Assembly: GCA_000004985.1 (NCBI GenBank)
Contig: GG739165.1
Source: Naegleria gruberi
Lineage: Eukaryota
Length of the DNA stretch: 3,082 nucleotides
Strand: one strand, 5' to 3'
Below, one piece after another: positions 1-3,082 of the stretch. Positions within the stretch are counted from its first letter, which is position 1. Each line of letters starts with the position of its first letter. A model generated the notes under the pieces. The model made no database searches. It was given only the letters and a program-made list of their open reading frames with translations, and was not told the DNA's origin. The position numbers and the translations under genes are program-made.

Positions 1-31
1 CTTCATCTTCTTCATCCTCATCTTTATCTAA

Positions 32-76
32 TAATAATTCTAATAATTCTAATAATTCTAATAATTCTAATAATTC
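32..76. repeat. Perfect 9-bp tandem repeat (TAATAATTC)x5 with partial flanking copies at 29-31 and 77-84.
   Basis: Read directly. It lies inside a 110-nt stretch (1-110) with no G on the + strand. Confidence 0.9.
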
Positions 77-111
77 TAATTTTAATAATAATTTTAATAA
101 ATTAAAAATAG

Positions 112-1095
112 GATTTATAGGTACAGGTGCAATGAATGGAGCAATAATTTATGGATTAATAAAATCCAAAATAATTAAATCTGAACAAATATATGGATAT
201 GATGCATCTGATAAAATATTAAATGAATGTGTTAAAAAGAATGAAATACAAAAATGTCAATCATCAAATGAATTAATACAAAAATGTCAAGTAATTATTT
301 TAGGAGTTAAACCACAATATTTAAATCAAGTTATTAATCAAATTAATAATTCTTTAATTCAAGTTATTAAAGAAAAGAGAGAAATATTATTAATTAGTAT
401 TGCTGCTGGATTTAAATTAACTACCATTTATGAACAATTAAATCAAAATTTAAAAAATTATTTATTAGAAAATGAAAATTTAACAAAATATATTAAATTA
501 TCACGTGTAATGCCAAATATTAATTGTATGATAAGTGAAAGTGCAAGTGGATATATTATGCATCCATTAAATAATAATGATTTTAAATTTAAACAAATTG
601 TTGAAATTATATTTTCTAAAATTGGAAAATGTGTATTTTTAACTGATGAAAATTATTTAGATTGTGTTACTGGATTAAGTGGAAGTGGTCCTGCTTTTGT
701 TTTCATGTTTATTGAAGCATTAGCAGATGGTGGTGTTTTTACTGGTTTATCAAGAGAAACTTCTCTAATTTTGGCAACTCAAACTGTTTTAGGTCTGCAA
801 AATTATTATTACAATCTTTAACTACTACTGATGGTAATAGTAATAATAATAATAATAATAATAATAGTGGTGGTAATAATAGTGGTGGTAATAATAATAA
901 TAATAATAATAACGGTGGATAAATGTACATCCAGCACAATTAAAAGATCAAGTCATGTCACCAAATGGTACAACTGCTAGAGGTGTTAAAACATTAGAAG
1001 ATGGTAATTTTAGATCAACTGTTATGAATGCTGTTATTAATGCTTTTAATAGATCTGTTGAATTAGGTAATCCAATTAAAAATAGTAAATTATAA
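112..1095 (+). CDS. Pyrroline-5-carboxylate reductase (P5CR/ProC family). It is 5'-partial within the window. The reading frame is disrupted twice: frame 0 covers 112-794, frame 2 covers 794-919, and frame 1 covers about 922-1095, with stop TAA at 1093-1095.
   Basis: Frame 0, read from 99, gives KLKIGFIGTGAMNGAII, a Rossmann G-x-G-type motif like E. coli ProC KIGFIGCGNMGKAI. Further conserved P5CR blocks follow: VIILGVKPQ, LISIAAG, RVMPN, GLSGSGPAFVFMFIEALADGGV and TGLSRETS..LATQTVLG. Frame 2 then gives SAKLLLQS, matching the conserved GAAKM(V/L)L block. Frame 1 gives HPAQLKDQVMSPNGTTARGVKTLEDGNFRSTVMNAVINAFNRSVELGNP, matching the conserved C-terminus HPGxLKDxVxSPGGTTIxGLxxLEExGFR...A..RSxEL. 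Frame 0 has a stop at 96-98 and no ATG between 99 and 131, so the true start lies in an exon not identified here. An acceptor-like TAG|GA sits at 109-111. Confidence 0.8.
794..919 (+). repeat. Asn/Gly/Ser-rich low-complexity coding insert, (AAT)n interspersed with AGT GGT GGT. In frame 2 it reads SAKLLLQSLTTTDGNSNNNNNNNNSGGNNSGGNNNNNNNNGG.
   Basis: Direct translation in frame 2. Homopolymeric Asn tracts inside conserved enzymes are typical of Dictyostelium proteins. The antisense strand gives a spurious poly-Leu/Pro ORF at 739..939 (-). Confidence 0.7.
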
Positions 1096-1101
1096 ATTAA
1101 T

Positions 1102-1107
1102 AATAAA
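1102..1107 (+). terminator. AATAAA polyadenylation-signal candidate for the P5CR-like gene, 7 nt after the stop. A second copy sits at 1161-1166.
   Basis: Hexamer seen in sequence. Function inferred from eukaryotic 3'-end processing. Confidence 0.4.
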
Positions 1108-1109
1108 TT

Positions 1110-1151
1110 AATCTATTAAAATTATAAAAATAAAATAATCTATTAAAATTA
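1110..1151. repeat. 15-bp direct repeat AATCTATTAAAATTA x2, at 1110-1124 and 1137-1151, in the 83-bp inter-stop region of the convergent gene pair.
   Basis: Read directly. It contains one of the few C residues in this A+T stretch. Confidence 0.8.
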
Positions 1152-1174
1152 AATTATAATAATAAATATTATTG

Positions 1175-1180
1175 TTTATT
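1175..1180 (-). terminator. AATAAA on the - strand, overlapping the TAA stop of the OGC-like gene (TAATAAAC).
   Basis: Hexamer seen in sequence. Confidence 0.35.
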
Positions 1181-1760
1181 AATGACCAAAATGATTTTTA
1201 AATTGTTCTAAAAATAAGAAAGTGAAAATAGTTTGTGGACCTAATCTGAAAAAGTAAGGCCAAAAACCCTTCCATAAACTAAATAAACCTTCATGTTTAA
1301 TAGTTTTTGTAATAACATCAATACTACCAGTATATTGTATTGAATTTGATGATTTTTGCATTGATTGTAATCTAGTTTTAGCCAAATCAACAGGAATAGA
1401 AACAACAGTACAAACATAACCAGCAATTAAAGAAGCACTTATATGTAATAATAAACCATCATTAGCAATTAATTGACTTGATAATAATGATTGTTTAGCT
1501 TGTGCATAAACACCTAATTGTGCTGCATTTAATACAATTGCTCTAATGACAGTTGGACTACATCCTCTCCATAAATTTAATATTCCTTCATTTTTACTAA
1601 TTTTATATAATGCATCAAATATATTTGAATAATTATATCTACCACTTGTCATTCTAATTAATGATAAATCTGCTGGTGTACCTACTATAGCTCCTATACC
1701 ACCTGCTATCATACCACATCCTAATTTAGTTGCAAAATTAGGTTGTGATTTATTATTTTT
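1179..1760 (-). CDS. OGC-like carrier, exon 4: KNNKSQPNFATKLGCGMIAGG...EQFKNHFGH*.
   Basis: Acceptor is aatAG|AAA at 1762-1761, phase 0. The frame is open and continuous with the listed 177-aa ORF. Stop TAA is at 1181-1179. Confidence 0.8.
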   Translation of the reverse strand, partial: KNNKSQPNFATKLGCGMIAGGIGAIVGTPADLSLIRMTSGRYNYSNIFDALYKISKNEGILNLWRGCSPTVIRAIVLNAAQLGVYAQAKQSLLSSQLIANDGLLLHISASLIAGYVCTVVSIPVDLAKTRLQSMQKSSNSIQYTGSIDVITKTIKHEGLFSLWKGFWPYFFRLGPQTIFTFLFLEQFKNHFGH

Positions 1761-2446
1761 CTATTATTATTTTTAATTATATTATTATATTTAATTATAT
1801 TTTTAATTTTTAATTATTTTATATAATTAATTAATTATTAATTTAAAAAAATACAAACATTTGATAAAAAATCCATTAAAGTATTAAAAACACCTAATCT
1901 AGTAGTAGTATAAGTAACTTGTCTAAATAAAGCAGCAGATAAACCTTTATAAAAAGTAGAAATTCCTTCATTCTTTGCAATACTAGTTGCAACTTGAACA
2001 AAATTAGAAGATCCTTTACCTTGACCTTCTCCTAATAATTGCATACGTGTTTTTAAGAAATCTGTTGGTCTATTATTATTATTACAATAATATTATGTAT
2101 AATATATTATTAATATATTATGTATTATTAAAATGATGATGAAATATTGTAAATACATTGTATAATAATATTATCATTACATACTGAATAATAACAGTTG
2201 CTAAACATCCTGATAATCCACCAAATAAAAAGTTTTGTCCTGTTGTTAATTGTTTTTCTATATATTATTAGTTATTAGTTAAATATTAATAATAATAGAT
2301 AGTATTGATATTGATGAAGAGTGATATTAATTAATCATCGGATAAAGATGATTATTAATGAGAGTAAAGATGAATAGTCATGATTAATAATGGCATTAAA
2401 TTCTTTCAAATTGACCATCAATTATCTTGTACATACCTTGAGGCAT
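1179..2446 (-). CDS. Mitochondrial carrier family protein, closest to 2-oxoglutarate/malate carrier (SLC25A11/OGC-like). Gene span is join(2437..2446, 2185..2257, 1859..2069, 1179..1760) on the - strand, about 291 aa.
   Basis: The spliced translation is MPQ|E|KQLTTGQNFLFGGLSGCLATVIIQ|PTDFLKTRMQLLGEGQGKG...YTTTRLGVFNTLMDFLSN|KNNKSQPNFATKLGCGMIAGGIGAIVGTPADLSLIRMTSGRY...LWRGCSPTVIRAIVLNAAQLGVYAQAKQ...IPVDLAKTRLQSM...FSLWKGFWPYFFRLGPQTIFTFLFLEQFKNHFGH. Three Mito_carr signature repeats are present: P-x-D-x-x-K-x-R; TPADLSLIRM; PVDLAKTRLQ. Long collinear similarity to mammalian OGC includes FLFGGLAG, RMQLSGEG, LRQATYTTTRLG, GTPAEVALIRMTADGR, LWRGC.PT..RAVVVNAAQL, MPVDIAKTRIQNM and FSLWKGFTPYYARLGPHTVLTFIFLEQ. 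From memory, the D. discoideum OGC orthologue may be annotated ucpC, but I cannot verify that here. Confidence 0.85.
1761..1858 (-). other. Intron 3 of the OGC-like gene, 98 nt, GTTTGT...TAG.
   Basis: 98 nt of about 95% A+T. Removing it joins ...DFLSN to KNNKSQPNFATKLGCGM... at a spacing that fits OGC. Confidence 0.75.
1859..2069 (-). CDS. OGC-like carrier, exon 3: (Q)PTDFLKTRMQLLGEGQGKGSSNFVQVATSIAKNEGISTFYKGLSAALFRQVTYTTTRLGVFNTLMDFLSN.
   Basis: Acceptor is aataatAG|A at 2071-2070. The split codon CA+A gives Gln, in frame with PTDFLKTRMQ, the first carrier signature. Donor is AAT|GTTTGT at 1858-1853. The ORF-track tail VCIFLN* is intron read-through. Confidence 0.75.
2070..2184 (-). other. 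Intron 2 of the OGC-like gene, 115 nt, GTATGT...TAG.
   Basis: Almost pure A+T. Required to join conserved ATVIIQ to PTDFLKTRMQ in frame. Confidence 0.75.
2185..2257 (-). CDS. OGC-like carrier, exon 2: (E)KQLTTGQNFLFGGLSGCLATVIIQ, last codon split.
   Basis: Acceptor is tatatAG|AA at 2259-2258 on the - strand. Donor is CA|GTATGT at 2184-2179. The FLFGGLSGCLATV block aligns with OGC FLFGGLAGMGATV. An alternative in-phase acceptor acaacAG|GA, with exon start at 2239, would give MPQGQNFLFGG. Confidence 0.65.
2258..2436 (-). other. Intron 1 of the OGC-like gene, 179 nt, GTATGT...TAG.
   Basis: Canonical donor and acceptor. The intron is A+T-rich but holds a less AT-rich core containing a CG dinucleotide, on the + strand at 2331-2400. 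Confidence 0.55.
2437..2446 (-). CDS. OGC-like carrier, exon 1 coding part: ATG CCT CAA G.
   Basis: The - strand reads gtgaatgaaaaaaATGCCTCAAG|GTATGTACAAG. The start context is A-rich and a consensus GTATGT donor follows immediately. The trailing G completes codon GAA (Glu) with the first two bases of exon 2. Confidence 0.6.
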
Positions 2447-2794
2447 TTTTTTCATTCACTGCAACAAATAAATAAAGGCTTTATTAATGTTTGATCAATT
2501 GTCTCAATTTGTAGTATGGACATTGTATCAGCGGACCGAAATAATTTAATCAGTGCTTGCGTTGAGTTTTTATGTAATATTAAGCTAAACTATTCTCATT
2601 TATTTTCATAATTTACCCTTGAATAAATATGATGATGAATATTGTTCCATCTAAATATGGAAACAGTAATAGTATTTTTTAGACTACCACCCAATAAAAT
2701 ATTTTAAGCCAGCAATCAACCACCAACAATAACCCTCAATATTTTCAGAGTAATAGCCTTATTATTATTATTAATAAAATCATCGGTTAAAAAA
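2447..2794. promoter_or_regulatory. Divergent intergenic/promoter region between the OGC-like gene (-) and the 2795 ORF (+).
   Basis: Both flanking start codons face outward. The region includes C/G-containing blocks unusual for dictyostelid intergenic DNA at 2528-2566, a CA-rich tract at 2683-2740, and a T5 run at 2567-2571. Confidence 0.5.
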
Positions 2795-3064
2795 ATGCTG
2801 TTACAGCACAATGTTATGTCTCTTAAACAACAATTGGTAGTAGGCATACATAAGGGTTGTTCTTCAAAAATCAACACCGCCATCAACAATACTCTAAGAA
2901 AATCCTTAATTTTATTATTCTTTACAGTATTAATAGTAGTAACATTAGTAATATCATCATCTTTTATTGAAGGTAAAAAAGATGAATTATCAACTGAAGA
3001 TGTTTCTTTTATTAATTCAATGATTGATCAAGCAATGTCCTCATCTGATATACTTTTATATTGA
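2795..3064 (+). CDS. Hypothetical 89-aa protein with one predicted transmembrane helix (LILLFFTVLIVVTLVISSSF). No family recognised.
   Basis: Open frame with an aaaaaaATG start context. Codons 36-89 show Dictyostelium-typical A/T third-position usage. Codons 1-35 are atypical, with CTG, CAG CAC, GGC, and ATC AAC ACC GCC ATC AAC. It ends with a rare TGA followed by TAA TAG. The window ends 18 nt later, so downstream exons cannot be excluded. Confidence 0.35.
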   Translation: MLLQHNVMSLKQQLVVGIHKGCSSKINTAINNTLRKSLILLFFTVLIVVTLVISSSFIEGKKDELSTEDVSFINSMIDQAMSSSDILLY

Positions 3065-3082
3065 TAATAGTAATAATAATTT

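What the first reader, a model, noticed from the sequence alone, without database searches (positions are those of the whole stretch)
780..935. P5CR-like gene changes reading frame twice around an Asn/Gly-rich insert
Conserved P5CR blocks sit in three different frames. Frame 0 carries ...ATQTVLG and ends at 794. Frame 2 carries SAKLLLQS, the conserved GAAKMLL block, plus the poly-Asn/Gly insert, and ends with TAA at 920-922. Frame 1 carries NVHPAQLKDQVMSPNGTT from 922 onward. The first switch looks like a single missing base in a TT run: TTAGGTCTGCA where TTAGGTTCTGCA would stay in frame. The second switch lies between 913 and 922. An intron does not fit. GTCTGC is a poor donor, the segment contains GGT-rich coding-like sequence, and splicing it out would delete the conserved AAKMLL block. 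So this is one of three things: two 1-bp indel errors next to a low-complexity tract in the source assembly, a genuinely disrupted gene or pseudogene, or an edited or engineered sequence. The net shift is +1, so the frames are not self-compensating.
Basis: partly seen in the sequence, partly recalled or inferred. Interest (0 to 1): 0.55.

Follow-up and report, generated by a model that had tools for sequence, protein, structure and literature searches.

The report
Twice-frameshifted Naegleria proline-synthesis gene
A proline-synthesis gene (P5C reductase) on a tiny, very AT-rich Naegleria gruberi contig is broken by two one-base gaps around an Asn/Gly-rich insert; the rest of the gene is intact, so this is most likely a draft-sequence error, less likely a very young pseudogene, and either way it is ordinary.

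Summary
Conserved P5C-reductase (P5CR) sequence runs in three frames: frame 3 to 794, frame 2 for 794-919, frame 1 from about 919/922 to the stop at 1093-1095. Homology, a solved-structure alignment and codon-position GC all change phase at the same two places.

The window is a whole 3,082-bp contig of the Naegleria gruberi NEG-M Sanger assembly, not Dictyostelium. The public gene model (XP_002668279.1, "partial") simply stops at the first premature TAA (819-821).

Adding one base at each site gives a P5CR that:
- keeps 40/40 family-invariant residues,
- covers the full Pfam dimerisation profile,
- folds confidently (pLDDT 87),
- carries a disordered 36-residue Asn/Gly/Ser loop insert.

I found no slippery heptamer and no significant RNA structure. 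Every frame-restoring GT..AG intron deletes conserved residues and fits the local splice consensus poorly.

Best explanation (about 0.6): two missing bases in the consensus of a poorly covered orphan contig. Rivals:
- real, very recent frameshift mutations (about 0.2),
- a 101-nt intron (834-934) explaining the second switch only (about 0.1).

No independent copy of the locus was reachable, so reads or cDNA are needed to settle it. Interest is low.

The parts
99..794 (+). P5CR coding sequence in frame 3: Rossmann NAD(P)H-binding domain (GFIGTGAMNGA...) and the first half of the dimerisation domain, ending ...ATQTVLG. The frame is open back to base 3 with no in-frame ATG, so the true 5' end lies off the contig.
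   Evidence: PF03807 46.5 bits; PF14748 profile 1-57; identical to annotated P0001; GC at third codon position 4.8%.
792..797 (+). Frame break 1: GGT|CT GCA. One base is missing between the invariant Gly codon and GCA. GGT TCT GCA (Gly-Ser-Ala) restores the conserved LGSAK.
   Evidence: homologues read QTVLGSAK/QTVLGAAK without a gap; the break lies inside predicted helix 219-241, pLDDT above 90.
819..821 (+). Premature TAA in frame 3, used as the stop of the public gene model (product ends ...LGLQNYYYNL).
   Evidence: P0001 = EFC35535.1/XP_002668279.1.
794..833 (+). Conserved helix block in frame 2: SAKLLLQSLTTTD (family consensus GSAKMVLE).
   Evidence: adds about 24 bits to PF14748; third-position GC 0%.
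834..919 (+). Asn/Gly/Ser-rich low-complexity insert in frame 2 (GNSN8SGGNNSGGN8GG), built on an (AAT)n/GGT trinucleotide array. It is absent from all homologues and is predicted to be a disordered surface loop.
   Evidence: period 3, 26 copies, 835-912, 0% indels; an insertion between adjacent residues of 5bse; coding-like phase GC 34/3/21%; pLDDT below 50 for residues 246-272.
913..921 (+). Frame break 2: CGGTGGATA. This is the only interval where frame 2 is still open (to 919) and frame 1 is already open (from 913). One added base, e.g. GGA ATA AAT or GGA TTA AAT, joins ...NNGG to (I/L)NVHPAQLKD.
920..922 (+). TAA stop that ends frame 2.
922..1095 (+). P5CR C-terminal part in frame 1: NVHPAQLKDQVMSPNGTTARG...RSVELGNPIKNSKL plus the TAA stop. 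It holds the HP, LKD and S-P-x-G-T-T substrate-site motifs and ends in -SKL.
   Evidence: aligns to 5bse 230-276; third-position GC 5.3%; all invariant residues kept.

Best explanation
This is the Naegleria gruberi gene for pyrroline-5-carboxylate reductase, the last enzyme of proline synthesis. It carries a genuine lineage-specific Asn/Gly/Ser-rich loop insertion in its dimerisation domain. In the deposited consensus one base is missing at 794/795 (GGT TCT read as GGTCT) and one in 913-921 (e.g. GGA ATA read as GGATA). The ORF therefore appears to jump frame 3 -> 2 -> 1.

The most likely cause is base-calling or assembly error in a poorly covered stretch of a 3-kb orphan Sanger contig that is extremely AT-rich and ends in low-complexity repeats. 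On this reading the organism makes a normal full-length enzyme.

Shown: the three-frame layout; the exact intervals of the breaks; the complete conservation of the repaired protein; and the absence of recoding signals.

Inferred: that the missing bases are artefacts rather than mutations.
For: 1. Origin. The window equals an entire 3,082-bp contig of the Sanger-sequenced NEG-M assembly. Both annotated proteins match 100% and their longest contig is 3082 (Sanger per PMC9928731 Table 1). The contig is 23% GC with 3-11% GC in spacers, and both ends sit in simple repeats. DNA of this kind is typically under-represented in clone libraries (established knowledge, not measured here).

2. No decay. 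The repaired protein keeps 40/40 columns that are invariant in 46 homologues and 32/38 of the columns conserved at 90% or more. Its 92.3% overall is no worse than the Willaertia orthologue at 91.0%. There are no extra stops. It is 47-50% identical to its relatives, against 52% between Willaertia and N. fowleri.

3. Codon signature. Each of the three segments keeps the extreme coding signature (third-position GC 0-5%) in its own frame.

4. Completeness after repair. The repaired product covers the full PF14748 profile, is collinear with 5bse and gives a confident model: pLDDT 87.1, pTM 0.82, one continuous helix across break 1, and the insert disordered.

5. Localised damage. Both lesions are single missing bases at places where undercalling a doubled base (TT or AA) restores the frame. 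Both fall within 127 nt, while about 870 nt of the remaining P5CR sequence and the whole 291-codon neighbouring gene with three introns are clean.

6. Likely the only copy. It is the only N. gruberi protein among the 120 hits listed for the P5CR search of a 5.8-billion-protein database. From memory, not verified here: Fulton et al. 1984 (PNAS 81:2406) grew NEG-M in a minimal medium whose 11 amino acids do not include proline. That would require a working P5CR.
Against: No reads, quality values, second assembly or transcript for this locus could be reached, so the error is inferred, not seen.

If the contig interior had the genome-wide coverage (about 8x, from memory of the JGI release notes), two consensus indels in 127 nt would be unlikely. 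Break 1 lies in non-repetitive sequence 40 nt before the repeat.

The conserved P5CR-SUMO-GET3 gene order of Willaertia, N. fowleri and a metagenomic relative is not kept here. That leaves room for a relocated, decaying copy.

Only the top 120 hits were visible, so a divergent second P5CR in N. gruberi cannot be excluded.
Confidence: 0.6

Rival explanations
1. The two one-base deletions are real. The gene, or one allele of it in the heterozygous NEG-M strain, is a very recently inactivated unitary pseudogene, possibly tolerated because the strain feeds on bacteria or rich axenic medium.
For: The sequence as deposited has two uncompensated frame breaks and two premature stops. The public annotation accepts the truncation. 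The indels lie next to a 78-nt trinucleotide array, a mutational hotspot. The locus has lost the P5CR-SUMO-GET3 synteny seen in three relatives. An 8x Sanger consensus is usually accurate.
Against: There is no other sign of decay: 40/40 invariant residues are kept, no further stops occur in frames where roughly 9% of random codons at this composition would be stops (my estimate from base frequencies), the codon-position bias is intact in all three segments, and the C-terminal -SKL is preserved. Two independent disabling indels with no accompanying substitutions would need a very recent origin. No other N. gruberi P5CR appeared among the top hits. From memory, NEG-M does not need proline.
Confidence: 0.2
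2. Only the first break is a frameshift (error or mutation). The second 'switch' is a 101-nt spliceosomal intron, 834..934 (GTAATAGT...CATCCAG), which removes the poly-Asn/Gly tract and joins ...SAKLLLQSLTTTD to AQLKDQVMSPNGTT in phase.
For: The splice is exactly in phase. The product scores 122.7 bits on PF14748 over profile 1-105, as good as the double repair at 123.9. It explains why no homologue has the insert. Its length (101 nt) and GC (22%) are within the range of the three verified introns of the neighbouring gene (98-179 nt, 3-21% GC).
Against: The splice sites do not fit. All three verified local introns start GT(A/T)TGT and end ATAG after pure A/T; this candidate starts GTAATA and ends CCAG.

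Its last codons read V-H-P in frame with the downstream exon, matching the family's H/S-P motif, where His is conserved in at least 90% of the 47 aligned sequences. By my estimate from base composition, a His-Pro pair there by chance is about 3 in 10,000.

The tract has coding-like phase GC (34/3/21%), while the verified introns show no such pattern. Frame 2 stays open through it.

Willaertia and N. fowleri have no intron at this position. A frame break at site 1 is still needed.
Confidence: 0.1
3. A single 142-nt intron, 793..934 (GTCTGCAA...CATCCAG), restores the frame. The mature protein lacks GSAKLLLQS...NVHP.
For: It is the only single GT..AG pair that restores frame 3 to frame 1 while removing the fewest residues. 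The product still passes Pfam at 98.5 bits.
Against: It deletes about 13 conserved residues, including the invariant Gly and the near-invariant Ala-Lys, Leu and His, and cuts a confidently predicted helix in half. It costs about 24 bits against the repaired reading. The donor GTCTGC and acceptor CCAG do not match local introns. The 'intron' contains a block homologous to P5CR in an open frame with coding phase bias. The JGI model did not use it.
Confidence: 0.03
4. The sequence is correct and is decoded by recoding: two programmed -1 ribosomal frameshifts, transcriptional slippage, or insertional RNA editing yield the full-length enzyme.
For: Both shifts go in the same direction (-1). Both follow a Gly codon, and the second is at a stop codon. 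The downstream frames are perfectly conserved.
Against: There is no X XXY YYZ slippery heptamer anywhere in 760-935. Neither GGU nor GGA can re-pair in the -1 frame. There is no stable RNA structure (z = -0.83, with 44 of 200 shuffles folding as well). No homopolymer exceeds four bases at either site. No Rfam element is present. To my knowledge no such system is known for nuclear genes of Heterolobosea, where reported editing is mitochondrial C-to-U (e.g. PMC4202320, seen).
Confidence: 0.02

Closest known systems
Pyrroline-5-carboxylate reductase (EC 1.5.1.2; ProC/PYCR; Pfam PF03807 + PF14748), e.g. Medicago truncatula P5CR (PDB 5bse) and human PYCR1 (2izz/5uat)
   Same: Same two-domain architecture and the same invariant motifs: GxGxxG/A, VKPQ, SIAAG, RVMPN, TGLSGSGPA, QTVLG, HP..LKD, SPxGTT. 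It is collinear with 5bse residues 16-276.
   Different: It carries a 36-residue Asn/Gly/Ser insert between residues that are adjacent in 5bse (228/230). As deposited it is split over three reading frames. Its 5' end is missing from the contig.
Heterolobosean orthologues: Willaertia magna ABK040_014402 (P0002), Naegleria fowleri P5CR (P0004/P0005), metagenomic relative P0003
   Same: These are the best database hits: 47-50% identity by direct pairwise BLASTP. They share the N-terminal FIGTGAMNG motif. The window and the two Naegleria-type sequences share an insertion before RVMPN. The window and Willaertia both end in -SKL.
   Different: The orthologues read through the 780-935 equivalent in one frame with no intron and no poly-Asn insert. 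They are followed by SUMO and ArsA/GET3 genes, whereas here the neighbour is an oxoglutarate-carrier gene.
Frameshift artefacts in low-coverage draft (Sanger) contigs
   Same: Single missing bases at doubled letters, clustered in a short stretch of an orphan contig, in a gene with no other defect. The gene caller answered with a truncated 'partial' model.
   Different: Not demonstrated here: no reads or quality values could be examined.
Poly-Asn / trinucleotide-repeat inserts in proteins of AT-rich protists (Dictyostelium, Plasmodium)
   Same: An (AAT)n-based tract in phase with the ORF, located in a surface loop and predicted to be disordered. The same gene has an SNN-repeat N-terminal extension.
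   Different: The host is a heterolobosean, whose genome average is 33-35% GC. The tract is flanked by the two frame breaks.

Membership tests
Pyrroline-5-carboxylate reductase (P5CR) | N-terminal Rossmann NAD(P)H-binding domain with a GxGxxG/A loop | tested here: met
   PF03807 scores 46.5 bits (cut-off 21.6) over residues 3-103, with the sequence GFIGTGAMNGA. The model shows a beta-alpha-beta fold with pLDDT above 90.
Pyrroline-5-carboxylate reductase (P5CR) | Complete C-terminal dimerisation domain (PF14748, 105 positions) | tested here: met
   Met only after one base is added at each break: 118.5-123.9 bits over profile 1-105. It is collinear with 5bse.
Pyrroline-5-carboxylate reductase (P5CR) | Family-invariant residues, including the S-P-x-G-T-T substrate-site motif | tested here: met
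   40/40 columns invariant in 46 homologues are kept, and SPNGTT is present.
Pyrroline-5-carboxylate reductase (P5CR) | Encoded as one translatable ORF or spliced mRNA (i.e. a functional gene) | tested here: not met
   The deposited sequence needs two frame changes. The longest product stops at 819-821 with only profile 1-51 of PF14748, 58.1 bits.
Pyrroline-5-carboxylate reductase (P5CR) | Catalytic activity (P5C + NAD(P)H -> proline) | not testable with these tools
   Needs an enzyme assay or complementation of a proC/pro3 mutant.
Programmed -1 ribosomal frameshift site | Slippery heptamer X XXY YYZ at the shift site | tested here: not met
   None anywhere in 760-935.
Programmed -1 ribosomal frameshift site | Stable downstream stem-loop or pseudoknot | tested here: not met
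   Fold of 780-960: -28 kcal/mol, z = -0.83, with 44 of 200 shuffles folding as well. No Rfam hit.
Spliceosomal intron (as in this contig) | GT..AG boundaries that restore an open frame | tested here: met
   793..934 does so for the whole gene. 834..934 does so for frame 2 to frame 1.
Spliceosomal intron (as in this contig) | Local splice consensus: 5' GT(A/T)TGT, 3' A/T-run + ATAG | tested here: not met
   The three verified carrier-gene introns all fit it. The candidates start GTCTGC or GTAATA and end CCAG. The sample is only three introns.
Spliceosomal intron (as in this contig) | No homology to the protein family and no codon-phase bias inside the intron | tested here: not met
   The SAKLLLQS and VHP blocks match the family. 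Phase GC is 46/0/29% and 34/3/21%, against a flat pattern in the verified introns.
Spliceosomal intron (as in this contig) | Intron at the same position in relatives | tested here: not met
   The Willaertia and N. fowleri loci read through in one frame.
Decayed (long-standing) pseudogene | Several disabling lesions plus loss of conserved residues or codon bias | tested here: not met
   There are two frame breaks but no decay: 40/40 invariant residues are kept, there are no further stops, and codon bias is intact. A very young pseudogene is not excluded.

The most novel reading that the evidence does not exclude
The deposited DNA is correct and Naegleria still makes full-length P5CR by correcting the message twice, through two non-canonical -1 recoding events or single-nucleotide insertional editing of a nuclear transcript. 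This would be a decoding mechanism not known in Heterolobosea.
Probability: 0.02. Interest if true: 0.8.

Novelty: not a real feature. Interest (0 to 1): 0.08.

Why it matters
It matters mainly for housekeeping. The public N. gruberi proteome carries a truncated, 'partial' P5C reductase (XP_002668279.1). Taken at face value, that would wrongly suggest the amoeba lacks a complete last step of proline synthesis.

If the breaks are errors, the model should be replaced by a protein of about 330 residues or more with a disordered Asn/Gly loop and a possible peroxisomal -SKL tail. If they are real, NEG-M would carry a freshly disabled proline gene, a small but checkable point about lab-strain metabolism. 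Neither outcome changes understanding of the enzyme family or of gene expression.

Tried and rejected
1. Rejected: both genes match N. gruberi records at 100%, and the nearest relatives are Willaertia and N. fowleri, not dictyostelids.

2. Search for an independent copy of the locus. Nothing was found by any route:
- a protein-guided scan of metagenome contigs;
- an exact DNA pattern across break 1 allowing 0-2 extra bases;
- a third protein search with a 105-aa junction-spanning query, where the best hit was 60% identical;
- exact look-ups of P0001, P0121 and three window ORFs in the assembly index.

3. Contamination of the N. gruberi assembly. The ContScout paper lists mostly bacterial contaminants and says nothing about this contig.

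4. -1 PRF or RNA structure. No heptamer and no significant fold.

5. Every single GT..AG intron that restores the frame was enumerated. All delete conserved residues.

6. Rfam and tRNA scans of the window gave nothing.

7. Literature on N. gruberi proline requirement and P5CR. Fritz-Laylin 2010, Fulton 1984 and Ginger 2010 are not held, and the searches gave nothing usable. The proline-prototrophy argument therefore rests on memory.

8. Intron consensus for Naegleria from the literature was not found. I used the three introns in the window instead.

Full report
**What the window is.** The window is not Dictyostelium. A search with the frame-repaired protein returned a 235-aa "predicted protein, partial [Naegleria gruberi]" at 100% identity whose only contig is 3,082 bp, the length of the window. 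The gene on the other strand is, residue for residue, the annotated N. gruberi protein NAEGRDRAFT_76811 on the same contig. The accessions are EFC35535.1/XP_002668279.1 and EFC35536.1/XP_002668280.1. So the window is one complete orphan contig of the Sanger-sequenced NEG-M assembly (sequencing technology and 35% genome GC from PMC9928731). It is unusually AT-rich: 23% GC overall and 3-11% in spacers and two introns. Both ends lie in simple repeats.

**The observation.**
- Frame 3 carries the Rossmann domain and the dimerisation domain up to ...ATQTVLG (792-794), then reads LQNYYYNL and stops at TAA 819-821.
- Frame 2 carries SAKLLLQSLTTTD followed by GNSN8SGGNNSGGN8GG (794-919) and stops at TAA 920-922.
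- Frame 1 carries (I)NVHPAQLKDQVMSPNGTTARG...ELGNPIKNSKL and stops at 1093-1095.

The public model simply ends at the first premature stop (P0001 ends ...LGLQNYYYNL).

**Three independent tests show this is not chance.**
- Pfam P5CR_dimer rises from 58.1 bits (profile 1-51) for the truncated ORF, to 98.5 bits when only the frame-1 tail is joined, to 118.5-123.9 bits (profile 1-105) when the frame-2 block is included.
- The repaired protein is collinear with the solved Medicago P5CR 5bse: query 4-240 aligns to residues 16-228 and query 277-323 to residues 230-276.
- The strongly GC-poor codon position (0-5% GC, against 21-46% at the other two positions) moves from pos%3=2 (99-793) to pos%3=1 (794-919) to pos%3=0 (922-1092). 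The three verified introns on the contig show no such pattern.

**Where the breaks are.** Break 1 lies between the invariant Gly codon GGT (792-794) and GCA (797-799). Homologues read QTVLG-S/A-AK with no gap, so exactly one base is missing. GGT TCT GCA gives the LGSAK seen in Willaertia and others. Break 2 is confined to 913-921, the only interval where frame 2 is still open and frame 1 already open. GGA ATA AAT or GGA TTA AAT would join the frames. At both sites, undercalling a doubled base fits.

**State of the gene.** With one base added at each site, the protein keeps 40/40 columns that are invariant in 46 diverse homologues. It also keeps 32/38 of the columns conserved at 90% or more. 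The six differences are conservative, and at least position 294 (Ala, in TTARG) is shared with the other heteroloboseans. In a leave-one-out comparison it scores 92.3%, no worse than the intact Willaertia orthologue at 91.0%. It is 47-50% identical to the Willaertia, N. fowleri and metagenomic orthologues, which are themselves 52-61% identical to each other, so there is no obvious long branch.

An AlphaFold2 model built with a 47-sequence alignment is confident (pLDDT 87.1, pTM 0.82). One continuous helix (residues 219-241) runs straight across break 1, and residues 246-272 of the insert are disordered with pLDDT below 50. The insert is a perfect period-3 array with no indels (835-912). It sits between residues that are adjacent in the solved structure. 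The gene therefore looks functional apart from the two missing bases.

**Alternatives tested.**
- *Recoding.* There is no X XXY YYZ heptamer in 760-935. Gly codons cannot re-pair in the -1 frame. The region has no significant structure (z = -0.83) and no Rfam match.
- *Single intron.* The only candidate that removes few residues is 793..934. It deletes the invariant Gly and the conserved AK..L..HP residues, halves a confident helix, costs about 24 bits, and has the ends GTCTGC...CCAG.
- *Intron for the second switch only.* An intron at 834..934 (GTAATAGT...CATCCAG, 101 nt) is in phase and scores 122.7 bits. Four points count against it. All three verified introns of the neighbouring gene start GT(A/T)TGT and end ATAG after pure A/T. 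Its 3' end encodes V-H-P in frame with the next exon, matching the family's H/S-P motif. The tract keeps frame 2 open with coding-like phase bias. Willaertia and N. fowleri have no intron there. It would also still leave break 1 unexplained.

**Error or mutation?** This could not be settled directly. No second copy of the locus exists in anything I could search.

The indirect evidence favours error:
- the contig is a tiny orphan of hard-to-clone composition;
- there are two same-direction single-base omissions within 127 nt;
- the rest of the gene and the whole neighbouring gene of 291 codons and three introns are flawless;
- there is no decay of any kind;
- it appears to be the only N. gruberi P5CR among the listed hits;
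- from memory, NEG-M grows without proline (Fulton et al. 1984, not retrievable here).

Against error:
- break 1 is in ordinary sequence;
- the nominal assembly depth was high (about 8x, also from memory);
- the locus has lost the P5CR-SUMO-GET3 gene order conserved in three relatives, so a relocated copy that was recently disabled is possible.

My estimates are: error 0.6; real recent frameshifts 0.2; intron at the second site 0.1; single intron 0.03; recoding 0.02.

**Verdict.** The feature is an ordinary defect of a draft record, or at most a young pseudogene, in a well-known enzyme gene. It is not a new biological mechanism. Reads or a PCR across 700-1000 would settle it.

Noticed in passing
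window 1-3082: The contig is 23% GC, with 3-4% GC in the intergenic spacer 1096-1178 and in one intron, and third-codon-position GC of only 2-5%. The N. gruberi genome average is 33-35%. The gene content is clearly Naegleria-lineage, so this is either an unusually AT-rich part of the genome or something odd about this orphan contig.
   Followed up: partly
window 1179-2446 (- strand): An intact oxoglutarate/malate-type mitochondrial carrier gene (291 aa, NAEGRDRAFT_76811) has three introns: 2436..2258, 2184..2070 and 1858..1761. All start GT(A/T)TGT and end ATAG. My reconstruction matches the annotated protein exactly. The closest relative is a metagenomic fragment (P0173, 72% identical, ERZ27315067) from DNA of 42% GC, closer than N. 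fowleri (56%).
   Followed up: yes
window 1-131: The P5CR reading frame is open from the first bases of the contig through a 9-nt repeat (TAATAATTC x 7.7, 32-100) that encodes SNN repeats. There is no in-frame ATG before the Rossmann motif, whereas relatives start 9-25 residues upstream of KIGFIG. The true 5' end (or a first exon) is therefore off the contig, which is why the public model is 'partial'.
   Followed up: partly
window 1084-1095: The protein ends in -SKL, the canonical peroxisomal targeting tripeptide. Willaertia (ESKL) and several other hits (LSKL, KSKL) end the same way. This hints that this clade of P5CRs may be peroxisomal.
   Followed up: no
L002 137-2726; L003 3637-6466; L004 6001-8484: In Willaertia and N. 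fowleri, P5CR is followed on the opposite strand by a SUMO-like gene and an ArsA/GET3 ATPase gene. In the metagenomic relative it is followed by ArsA/GET3, with no SUMO gene called. This order is not kept in the window, where the carrier gene follows.
   Followed up: partly
L003 4455-4640 (N. fowleri, contig coverage 1.65x); proteins P0004, P0005: The N. fowleri P5CR models in the database read through or truncate at an intron after ...KDRVVSPSG (GTATGT donor). The public proteins therefore carry intron-encoded junk or end early. The window has no intron at that position.
   Followed up: no
window 2795-3064 (+ strand) and 2460-2790: An unannotated 89-aa ORF has a hydrophobic segment (LILLFFTVLIVVTLVI), no Pfam match and no exact match in the assembly index. 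It follows a roughly 330-bp stretch of slightly higher GC (27%) that has no long ORF. It could be an unannotated small gene or chance.
   Followed up: partly
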